A stretch of DNA of 62,960 bases, filler included, from Licmophora abbreviata (taxonomy: Eukaryota): NCBI GenBank assembly GCA_900291995.1. It is 11 parts of 11 records of this genome, joined end to end, with 100 filler letters (N's around TTAATTAATTAA, not from the genome) between each part and the next. Parts side by side here need not be neighbours in the genome. Positions count along the whole stretch, not along the records: positions 42,483 to 54,937 come from OLMU01004596.1; 10 more parts are not named here. One strand, written 5' to 3'. Position 1 is the stretch's first letter, and every line of letters begins with the position of its first letter. The translations under genes and the position numbers were made by a program. The notes beneath the pieces are model-generated. The model saw only the letters and a program-made list of their open reading frames with translations. It ran no database searches and had not been told where the DNA came from. This document shows positions 34,094 through 52,882 of the stretch, piece by piece.

Positions 34094-35258
34094 CTTCGAA
34101 GGTTCCTTTCGCGTCGTATTTCAAGTATACTAGTCTTTCTTATGGTGACCTTAATAATGGCGAGGAGAGCGTTGTAGTCATGACATGGATCAATGCATAG
34201 CGTGTCCGGGTGTTCAGGATCAATGCAGCAAGCAGCACCACATTTTTTTCCGTCGTACTCGTAGACCGCGAGAGTGTCCACGACATCTAGGGTTAGAGGT
34301 AATGACGAGAGTTTTGCACACCGTTTGATGTCGTCGGGAGTGAGTCGGAGCAAAGACAAACTTCACTTTCTCTAAGTCTACTNNNNNNNNNNNNNNNNNN
34401 NNNNNNNNNNNNNNNNNNNNNNNNNNTTAATTAATTAANNNNNNNNNNNNNNNNNNNNNNNNNNNNNNNNNNNNNNNNNNNNCGGCATGAGGCGCAAGCG
34501 CCATCACACCTTGTCAAAAATTATTCCAAGACTTAGCGCTGAGCACTAAGTGATGTGGGATCACGTACAGTCTGGAGTATTTCATCCGTGTATGGACCAG
34601 CTCCTCCACATGCGCACAGGCCTTCATGATCGCCCGCAATCGCTTGGAAAGGTAAGTATGCGTTGGGACAAAGTGGTAATTGCTGGACTTGACATCCATG
34701 GACAAAATTCCAGAGAGCAACAAGTTTAAAAAAGTTCTACGAGGTCCAGATACCCCTCCCCGAAACCTCAAACGTGTCTTTGTATTTGTTTTGTATCCCA
34801 AGAGTTCGACTCAACCATTATAATTAATTATTTACTTATCTCTCTTCGCCTTTTGGCTTTGATCTTGTGTAGTAACTGTTCTAAAACCTTTAACAAGGTT
34901 TTTCTGGTCATTGACCAGAACTTGTTAAACTATTTTTTGTATTCCAGGAGGTTCCCTTGAGCTTGCTCAACATCCTCCAAGCATGGTCTTGGCATTTCAC
35001 GCACCGCCTTGACTCGTGCACACCCCCCTTTCCATCAAACAACCCCTTCGACCTCCCCACCCGTTTTATACGTTTCCTCGGGGAAGAGTCGTGTCTGAAA
35101 AAGGGAAATCTCAAATGCGGAGATTTCATATTTGAGAGCACGATTTGCCTAGAGCAGCGACCTCTTTCCCTGCGGTACCGCCACGACGACAGCATAGGAT
35201 ATACTGGTCAACTGACAAGGTCGCGTTCACCACCTTTAGTGACCTCCGTTTTATCACA

Positions 35259-50852: not shown

Positions 50853-52882
50853 CTACACCCCGTACGTGGTTCTGTAGCTAGTCACACTCGCAAGCACGCT
50901 CTCGTCGTACTCGGAACTTTTCTCAATGAAAGCCTGTAGCTGAGGAAGATCTACAATCGATACAACCGGTATCGACAGGTCCCTCGCTACGGCTTGTACT
51001 GCAGAGACAGGGTCCTCGAAGGACCGCTTCTCTGCCCGATCAAGAGCAATCACTACACCGACAGGCTTTGCGCCAATGTTATTCAACATGGTATACGATT
51101 CTCGAACGGCAGTGCCAGCGGTGATGACATCATCGACAACCAAAACTTGCTTGCCTTTCATCGGAGCACCAACAAGAACGCCGCCTTCCCCGTGATCTTT
51201 CGCCTCCTTTCGATTGTATGAAAAGCCGACGCTCACTCCATAGTCGCTGTACAATGCCGCGCATACAACTGCTCCTAGCGAAATGCCCTTGTAGGCAGGA
51301 CCAAATACAACGTCGAAGTTCACGGTTCCTCTTTCGGCCCTGTATTCAGTGGAGCAAAGACATCAACACTTAGGTCAGTAAACGCAAGTTGAGAGCCTAG
51401 AATTCCCTGATCGATCGAGCTGCTCCCAGTGGAACCGTCTTGTCTCAGAGTATATTGAATCAGCGAATTAGGCTTTGACCGGCATCTTCCCGATTGGGAA
51501 TAAGGTGAAAGAAGACCTATGTGGATCCTCACTGACAAGACGAATCCAATGGAAAAAACTACTCCTCGATACAGATCTTGTTGTCCCGTTCTCAGGTTGG
51601 GTCGGTGCACTTGCAAATAAATTTATTTCATCGCCACTCACGTGGGGGCGGATCGATAACACGGACCAAGTGGTACTCTCGTCATTCCCATCCGCTTGAG
51701 AGAAACAACAGGATCGACTGGGCAACTTACAGTTCACTCGAGTTCATGATTGCTGAAGCGTACGATTTCCCAAGCTTGAAGAGGGCGGCCCCTGACGCAA
51801 ACAGGCCTGCATTAAAAAAGTAGGGTGAGGTTCGCCCACTTTTGAGTACGAAGGAGCCAAACTTCAGCACCCCCTCAGCCAGACTGAATTCCAAGAACTC
51901 GGTCTGATACTTTTGAATATCAGTAGTTCTGCTGGCGTTGGAATCCTCCAAAACGTGTTTTCGCGCTTCCTGTATCTGCTCCTTTAGTGCCTTTGCCGCG
52001 GCACCTGGATCATTAGCTCGGCTAATGCCTCTCGACACAGGAAGCAGCAACCCAGAACCTTGCTGGTTCAAGCCAGCGGCAACAGTATCTTCCAGACTTC
52101 CGCCTTGTGCCCCGATTCCTGGTGCTAGAATCCATACAGCCGATCCTGCCGCCTGCCGAGCCCGGCGCATTGCCACAGGATCGGTTGCACCCACAACCAA
52201 GCCAAGCTGCGCGTTGTCGTTCTGAGAAGACCACTGTCCAGCCAGATGCGCGATGCGTTCGTAGAGAGTCTCACTCGATCGCAGTTCCAATGCAAGCAGA
52301 TCATTGGAGCCAGGATTTGAAGTCTTGCACAAAAGAAAAGCTCCTTTATCTGCGTATATTCCAGTGACGAAGGGACTCACCGAGTCCCATCCCATAAGCG
52401 GACTCAGCGTGACAGCATCAGCACCTACGTCGTACGCGGCTGTAGCGTATGCAGCTGCTGTAGAGCCAATGTCACCGCGCTTGACGTCCAACAGAATGGG
52501 TATGCTGGAAGGAATCTGTTTCAAGACACGCCTTAACGTCTCAGCACCATGTCTGCTTCCAAGAGCTTCAAAGAATGCAGCGTTGGGCTTGTAACAGGCT
52601 GCATGCGGTGCTACAGAATCAAGGAAGGAACAAGCATTAGGCATGAGCGCAGCAGACTAAGAGAGACAAACGGCAGTAGATCCCGTCCCCTAACGACATC
52701 TTACCGGTGGCATCGATAAGCGTCTTGCAGAAAGTGTAAGCGGCATCGGACTGGTCCTCTTGTGAGACTCCATCTAGTCCATCGGGAAACAGTTCCGAAG
52801 CATGCGGGTCAAGGCCGACACAAAGGAGCGAGTCAATTTCCTCGACTCGCTTCTCCAGCTTTGCGAAAAATGAGGTGCTCAT
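50853..52882 (-). CDS. UMPS: Bifunctional UMP synthase, OMP decarboxylase-orotate phosphoribosyltransferase order; short intron 1 and 391-nt intron 2 (51340-51730)
   Basis: [35 protein letters not shown] (OMPDC); [47 protein letters not shown] (OPRT). Confidence 0.95.
51436..51542 (-). ncRNA. Intronic box C/D snoRNA candidate with two LSU-rRNA antisense elements
   Basis: Perfect 9-bp terminal stem CGTCTTGTC/GACAAGACG flanking box C GTGAGGA (51532-51526) and box D CTGA (51448-51445); internal TTCCC/GGGAA hairpin; elements GGTCTTCTTTC and CGCTGATTC. Confidence 0.8.
51587..51690 (-). ncRNA. Intronic box C/D snoRNA, U18/SNORD18 counterpart
   Basis: Box C ATGACGA (51685-51679); 13-nt guide CTTGGTCCGTGTT (51670-51658) before D' TCGA; C' GCGATGA; box D CTGA (51595-51592); outer stem GATCCTGTTGT/ACAACAAGATC. 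Confidence 0.82.

What the first reader, a model, noticed from the sequence alone, without database searches (positions are those of the whole stretch)
51436..51542. Box C/D RNA with a split guide that tiles a contiguous ~22-nt stretch of LSU rRNA
Seen in sequence (minus strand): a perfect 9-bp terminal stem, boxes C (GTGAGGA) and D (CTGA), and two antisense elements about 40 nt apart, GGTCTTCTTTC (51517-51507) and (TT)CGCTGATTC (51467-51457). Recalled knowledge: conserved eukaryotic LSU rRNA reads GAAUCAGCGGGGAAAGAAGACC, the region targeted by yeast snR190 and human SNORD12. One element pairs GAAAGAAGACC and the other pairs the adjacent GAAUCAGCG, leaving two central Gs unpaired or in G-U wobbles. 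The second element is not directly next to box D, so it does not follow the D+5 methylation rule. Inference: this may be a non-canonical bipartite guide or rRNA-folding chaperone, architecturally like snR4/snR45/SNORD13, and possibly undescribed in diatoms.
Basis: partly seen in the sequence, partly recalled or inferred. Interest (0 to 1): 0.8.

Follow-up and report, generated by a model that had tools for sequence, protein, structure and literature searches.

The report
Diatom intron guide RNA, split antisense
An intron of a diatom pyrimidine-synthesis gene holds a conserved small guide RNA that grips one stretch of ribosomal RNA with two separate arms, a known design, but probably at a ribosomal position not recorded as modified in yeast, humans or plants.

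Summary
A box C/D snoRNA (51542-51436, minus strand) in UMPS intron 2 has two antisense elements that tile host LSU 2279-2300 (yeast 2385-2406) without a gap, starting at the first pair of helix H73. They reveal a D′ box (CUNA; CUGA in 2 of 8) always 2 nt after element 1, and a divergent C′. So element 1 is an ordinary D′ guide pointing at yeast-A2398, and element 2 is 'extra base-pairing', already described for many yeast and human snoRNAs. It is not the snR190/SNORD12 orthologue: a canonical one aimed at G2395 lies elsewhere in the same genome. It is not an acetylation guide either: no cytidine lies between the arms. Best reading: methylation guide with a long H73-opening accessory arm (0.55). 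Main rival: non-methylating H73 placeholder (0.3), since C′ lacks its first GA in 8 of 8. A third conserved block is unexplained. No Rfam match; no expression data obtained.

The parts
51436..51542 (-). Box C/D snoRNA, whole, with terminal stem (51542-51534 pairs with 51444-51436)
   Evidence: stem covaries in orthologues
51526..51532 (-). Box C (GUGAGGA; RUGAKGA in 8 of 8)
51507..51517 (-). Element 1, D′ guide: 11 WC pairs to host LSU 2290-2300 (yeast G2396-C2406); D′+5 = host A2292 (yeast A2398)
51501..51506 (-). Invariant AC plus box D′ CUUA (51504-51501); D′ is CUGA in 2, CUUA in 4 and CUAA in 2 of 8
51486..51500 (-). Internal hairpin (3-5 bp, 4-6 nt loop in 8 of 8) between D′ and C′
51479..51485 (-). 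Divergent box C′ (AUGCCGG); first GA replaced by GC in 8 of 8; closes an invariant stem with ACC
51467..51478 (-). Third conserved block (consensus UCAACACCAAU), target unresolved
51457..51467 (-). Element 2, accessory antisense: 9 WC + 1-2 G-U pairs to host LSU 2279-2289 (yeast G2385-G2395), the 5′ strand of H73 from its first pair
51445..51448 (-). Box D (CUGA); the adjacent 8-10 nt are not conserved
51599..51689 (-). U18/SNORD18-like box C/D snoRNA: C 51685-51679, guide 51670-51658 (13 WC pairs to host LSU 581-593), D CCGA 51605-51602
   Evidence: Rfam SNORD18 below cut-off (E 0.69 here, 0.014 in L225)
51340..51730 (-). UMPS intron 2 (391 nt, GT-AG), host of both snoRNAs
50853..52882 (-). 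UMPS gene (exons 52882-52705, 52610-51731, 51339-50853; OMP decarboxylase then phosphoribosyltransferase)

Best explanation
An intron-processed box C/D snoRNP of pennate diatoms that binds pre-LSU rRNA with two arms before helix H73 closes. Element 1 is the D′ guide and sets fibrillarin on yeast-A2398 (host A2292), or on A2399 if the invariant C before D′ lengthens the box by one. Element 2 is an accessory arm that pairs directly upstream, holds the H73 5′ strand open and raises the efficiency. Shown here: the sequence, the pairing potential with the host rRNA, conservation, the fixed D′ register and the intron location. Inferred: expression, snoRNP assembly, the methylation itself and its site.
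For: D′ lies exactly 2 nt after the 11-nt guide in 8 of 8 and is canonical CUGA in 2. In fungal snR190, which does not methylate in S. cerevisiae, this spacing varies among species. A hairpin and a C′ in kink-turn geometry follow in 8 of 8. Divergent D′ boxes can be active: S. pombe snR107 has CCUA and methylates G2483 (PMC11971394). Accessory arms of 4-11 bp in the unused second guide region, not next to box D, are common and stimulate methylation up to five-fold (PMC3116282). The arms pair at -17.7 and about -16 kcal/mol against -12.8 for the two H73 strands. The Rfam SNORD12 consensus also has a non-pairing A two places before D′.
Against: C′ lacks its first GA in 8 of 8 and D′ keeps its G in only 2 of 8; mutating that GA cut methylation five-fold in a reporter. 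A C just before D′, invariant here, is under-represented in active yeast guides (PMC5389607). The comparative table I read lists no Nm between At Gm2396 and Gm2410 in any column. The orthologues were found by a pattern that demanded both arms and box D, so copies lacking element 2 could not be seen. The third block is not explained. There is no expression or modification data.
Confidence: 0.55

Rival explanations
1. A non-methylating placeholder or chaperone. The C/D motif stabilises the RNA, the C′/D′ motif is structural only, and the two arms shield the whole H73 5′ strand and its link to the peptidyl-transferase loop until domain V is transcribed, as proposed for yeast snR190. The third block may tether a second rRNA domain.
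For: The arms cover H73's 5′ strand from its first pair through to the start of H74. C′/D′ has lost one of its two sheared GA pairs in 8 of 8. The predicted site is not modified in the species tabulated. There is precedent on the same helix (PMC8536666). The third block can pair 7 + 4 bp with the domain I site that matches snR190 box B (-15.5 kcal/mol for the consensus form, 0 of 2000 shuffles).
Against: The guide-to-D′ register is fixed in 8 of 8. The genome already has an snR190-type RNA for this helix. The window's own third block pairs only weakly with domain I (-10.1, p 0.027) and better with two other sites.
Confidence: 0.3
2. A diverged paralogue of the snR190/snR107/SNORD12 family whose D′ slipped by three positions and whose second antisense element was extended. 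This is a claim about origin and is compatible with either function above.
For: It shares the layout box C, short spacer, UCUUCUUUC guide, D′. A CCAR-type core lies about 25 nt after D′, as in human HBII-99 (27 nt) and, further away, in fungi.
Against: No snR107 or SNORD12 match at E<=10 for the window RNA or 4 of the 7 orthologue loci, whereas the true orthologue hits both. Model R1 does not match the true orthologue's locus at E<=5. The UCGAC loop motif is absent. The shared guide is forced by the shared target.
Confidence: 0.2
3. An acetylation guide of the snR4/snR45/SNORD13 type.
For: Two separated antisense arms on one target.
Against: Those RNAs pair upstream and downstream of the cytidine to be modified (PMC12848939). 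Here the arms meet at G2395/G2396 with nothing looped out, and the target has no CCG (CCG consensus recalled).
Confidence: 0.02
4. A chance arrangement in an intron.
For: None beyond the shortness of the motifs; 112 of the 119 readable pattern hits in metagenomes lacked a box C.
Against: 7 hits have box C, all 7 lie in the same UMPS intron, 36 invariant columns were not demanded by the pattern, and the stem covaries.
Confidence: 0.01

Closest known systems
Box C/D snoRNAs with 'extra base-pairing' (snR75, snR76, snR70, U16 and others; van Nues et al. 2011, PMC3116282)
   Same: One D′ guide plus a conserved accessory complement to the rRNA right beside the target, in the unused second guide region and not next to box D.
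   Different: The accessory arm is at the top of the reported range (10-11 bp against 4-11) and abuts the guide duplex with no gap. The predicted site (yeast A2398) is not in the yeast, human or plant lists that I read.
snR190 / snR107 (RF04328) / SNORD12 (RF00581)
   Same: Guide just behind box C that pairs with the H73 to PTC-loop strand; a further antisense element between C′ and D; degenerate C′/D′.
   Different: D′+5 is A2398, not G2395. The accessory arm covers 2385-2395, not 2376-2383. There is no UCGAC loop. The neighbour is U18, not U14. A canonical family member exists separately at G000:C1405 (L267/L288).
snR4 / snR45 / SNORD13 acetylation guides
   Same: Two separated guide sequences on one rRNA stretch.
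   Different: No target cytidine between the arms; the target is LSU, not 18S; a D′ guide register is present.

Membership tests
Box C/D snoRNA | Terminal boxes C and D with both sheared GA pairs and a closing stem | tested here: met
   8 of 8
Box C/D snoRNA | Conserved rRNA complement of 10 nt or more upstream of D or D′ | tested here: met
   11 WC pairs, 2 nt before CUNA in 8 of 8
Box C/D snoRNA | Consensus-like C′/D′ motif | tested here: inconclusive
   geometry kept, but first GA of C′ is GC in 8 of 8 and D′ is CUGA in 2 of 8
Box C/D snoRNA | Stable RNA bound by fibrillarin, Nop56, Nop58 and Snu13; guides 2′-O-methylation | not testable with these tools
   needs northern blot, RIP and RiboMeth-seq
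Extra-base-pairing snoRNAs | Conserved complement next to the guide's target, not adjacent to D or D′ | tested here: met
   element 2; (its conservation was demanded by the search pattern)
Extra-base-pairing snoRNAs | The accessory arm stimulates methylation | not testable with these tools
   needs a mutant
snR190/snR107/SNORD12 | D′+5 falls on yeast G2395 | tested here: not met
   falls on A2398; the guide has A opposite G2395; met by L267/L288
snR190/snR107/SNORD12 | Conserved loop motif (UCGAC) between D′ and C′ | tested here: not met
   variable hairpin instead; UCGAU in L267
snR190/snR107/SNORD12 | ASE2/box B complementary to LSU domain I | tested here: inconclusive
   third block pairs -10.1 to -15.5 kcal/mol there but as well or better elsewhere
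snR190/snR107/SNORD12 | Rfam model match | tested here: not met
   none at E<=10
snR190/snR107/SNORD12 | Synteny with U14 (fungal members) | tested here: not met
   the neighbour is U18-like; the U14-like gene is on another contig
snR4/snR45/SNORD13 | Two guides flanking a looped-out target cytidine | tested here: not met

The most novel reading that the evidence does not exclude
Diatoms use a second, previously unknown H73 snoRNA beside their snR190/SNORD12 orthologue. It has three antisense elements: two clamp the entire H73 5′ strand and a third tethers LSU domain I or H66. It acts as a folding chaperone for the root of the peptidyl-transferase domain, and may also place a lineage-specific methyl on A2398/A2399 at the edge of the PTC loop.
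Probability: 0.2. Interest if true: 0.65.

Novelty: new member of a known kind. Interest (0 to 1): 0.4.

Why it matters
My searches found no map of diatom rRNA methylation and no description of this RNA. It predicts either a methyl not in the yeast, human or plant lists, beside the peptidyl-transferase loop, or a second H73 placeholder. Both can be tested in P. tricornutum. It also shows that UMPS, a standard knockout and selection locus in that species, appears to host two snoRNAs: large deletions across intron 2 would remove them, and cDNA complementation would not bring them back (inference).

Tried and rejected
Sequencing runs: no RNA holder was listed, which is no evidence either way. Prokaryote genomes: the two-arm pattern gave 44 stretches, all in prokaryotic records, taken as background and not read further. 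Viral contigs: 17 stretches, none with box C. The UMPS protein scan of genome contigs returned only prokaryotic records among the 80 kept. D-guided methylation by element 2: rejected, since the spacing is 8-10 nt and the sequence varies. The window's D-adjacent 9-bp match to the ITS2 3′ end, and a box-B reading of the same bases: rejected, not conserved in orthologues. Element 2 against 5.8S: no run of 9 WC pairs in the host. Element 1's 9-bp second match at LSU 17-25: about chance level, not pursued. D′ = CCAA followed by UCG (snR190-like register): rejected, orthologues show CUNA at the earlier place. One search used a mis-registered structure and is void; it was redone. Model R1 could be run only over held sequences (window, L287, L288): one real hit, so single copy rests on the DNA search. 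Exact look-up of two L163 ORFs found neither. Earlier scan findings: none in three look-ups. The supplement of PMC7431573 could not be read; it may show which PtUMPS deletions span intron 2.

Full report
Observation. The RNA lies in intron 2 (51730-51340) of a UMPS gene. The host rDNA contig was fetched and has the target unchanged. Element 1 makes 11 WC pairs with LSU 2290-2300, element 2 makes 9 WC + 2 G-U pairs with 2279-2289, so 22 nt are tiled without a gap. On the Rfam LSU structure the target begins at the first pair of the helix that closes domain V and ends at the first pair of the next helix (the names H73 and H74 follow PMC8536666 and recall). Yeast numbers are anchored on C2392 and G2395. 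An element like element 2 arose in 1068 of 200,000 spacer shuffles. Rfam has no family for it, at cut-off or at E<=10. One copy was found in the genome by DNA search.

Orthologues. The pattern was found again in 119 of these; 7 have a box C upstream. All 7 sit before the same UMPS exon, and all 6 that reach far enough upstream also carry the U18-like guide and the same splice donor. Exon-3 proteins are 70-92% identical to each other. L163 is 97-98% identical to P. tricornutum UMPS XP_002179434.1, and the other homologues that name an organism are pennate diatoms ('pennate' recalled). The caveat is that the arms are conserved by construction. The independent evidence is box C, the intron position, the U18 neighbour, 36 invariant columns that the pattern did not ask for (of 57), and both-side changes in the terminal stem (0 of 500 shuffles reached the covariation score, which is not a probability).

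Anatomy. In 8 of 8 the order is C, 7-8 nt, element 1, AC, CUNA, a 3-5 bp hairpin, NUGCHGG, a third block, element 2, 8-10 variable nt, D. CUNA is CUGA in two, so it is D′. The bases AC before it pair with GU at the end of C′ in all eight, which explains the A opposite G2395. D′+5 is host A2292 (yeast A2398), with a possible shift to A2399 because a C before D′ can lengthen the box (PMC5389607 discussion). C′ keeps its kink-turn position but has GC for its first GA in all eight. The D-adjacent stretch is not conserved, so there is no D guide.

Not the snR190 orthologue. A search of the own genome for a guide in the G2395 register gave 33 sites. I fetched 20 of them, chosen by fit to that register, and 1 of the 20 had boxes C and D. 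That locus (L267/L288) has D′ CUGA with +5 on G2395, a UCGAU loop and an AAGCCAGU element. Its best Rfam match is snR107 (E 0.17) and its third is SNORD12 (E 0.49), both below cut-off. The window RNA and 4 of the 7 orthologue loci hit neither family, and a model of the eight sequences does not match L288. This genome therefore has two box C/D RNAs for the same helix.

Third block. The consensus form pairs 10 bp with LSU 2056-2081 (H66 by recall; -17.3 kcal/mol; 8 of 300 shuffles do as well somewhere in the rRNA), 7 + 4 bp with the domain I site that corresponds to snR190 box B and snR107 ASE2 (-15.5), and with a variable D2 stretch that is the best site for the window's own copy (-15.4). The window's copy is weak at the first two (-10). 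Only the host's rRNA was available, so covariation could not be tested. This block is unresolved.

Mechanism. Most likely it is a D′ methylation guide whose second arm opens the H73 strand (0.55). That is the 'extra base-pairing' design: 4-11 bp, often in the unused second guide region, not next to D, up to five-fold stimulation, and listed for snR190, U18 and HBII-99 among others (PMC3116282). The rival is a non-methylating placeholder like S. cerevisiae snR190 (0.3), favoured by the degenerate C′/D′ and by the absence of this site from the table I read. The two can coexist, as in S. pombe snR107. An acetylation guide is excluded by geometry. Expression and modification were not tested.

Literature seen. 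PMC3116282: main text parts 1-3 of 6, passages, supplement parts 20 and 25 and search passages. PMC8536666: passages and Discussion. PMC5389607: passages and Discussion. PMC11971394, PMC11879421, PMC8583080, PMC11542601, PMC12848939, PMC4247016, PMC7431573: passages only. PMC6156588: supplement passages only. Not in print as far as these searches go: snoRNA + diatom + Phaeodactylum (35 papers, 20 listed, none a snoRNA catalogue by title), snoRNA + stramenopile and related terms, RiboMethSeq + diatom + rRNA (0), snoRNA + UMP synthase + intron + diatom (0), Am2398 (no occurrence among the 30 of 84 listed). The library lacks most subscription papers, and genome annotation supplements could list the locus.

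Verdict. A real, conserved, apparently unlisted diatom snoRNA family of a known design, with a testable new site and one unexplained conserved block. Novelty: new member of a known kind. Interest 0.4.

Noticed in passing
window 51689-51599 (-): U18/SNORD18-like snoRNA in the same intron, conserved in 6 of 6 informative orthologues; D′+5 gives host LSU A584, the yeast A649 register; it has a conserved hairpin between D′ and C′.
   Followed up: partly
L267 / L288 (G000:C1405 about 2575-2465, -): Canonical snR190/snR107/SNORD12-type snoRNA aimed at G2395, in what looks like the first intron of a sulfite-reductase-like gene (gene name from recall, not tested).
   Followed up: partly
L287:1501-1593 (-): U14/SNORD14-like snoRNA (39.6 bits, below the cut-off of 64), apparently intronic, with no snR190-like neighbour within 900 nt.
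   Followed up: partly
window 34836-35026 (+): U2 snRNA (122.5 bits) with UUUGAUCUUG where the Rfam consensus has UAAGAUCAAG, in the stretch that pairs with U6 just before the branch-site region (function recalled); U6 was not checked for matching changes.
   Followed up: no
L163 (P. tricornutum-like UMPS locus): The intron that carries both snoRNAs is in the gene used as a 5-FOA marker; genomic and cDNA complementation plasmids already exist (PMC7431573).
   Followed up: partly
window 51611-51598 (-): 14 nt identical in sense to a stretch of the host LSU, overlapping the U18 box D; not conserved in orthologues, probably chance.
   Followed up: no
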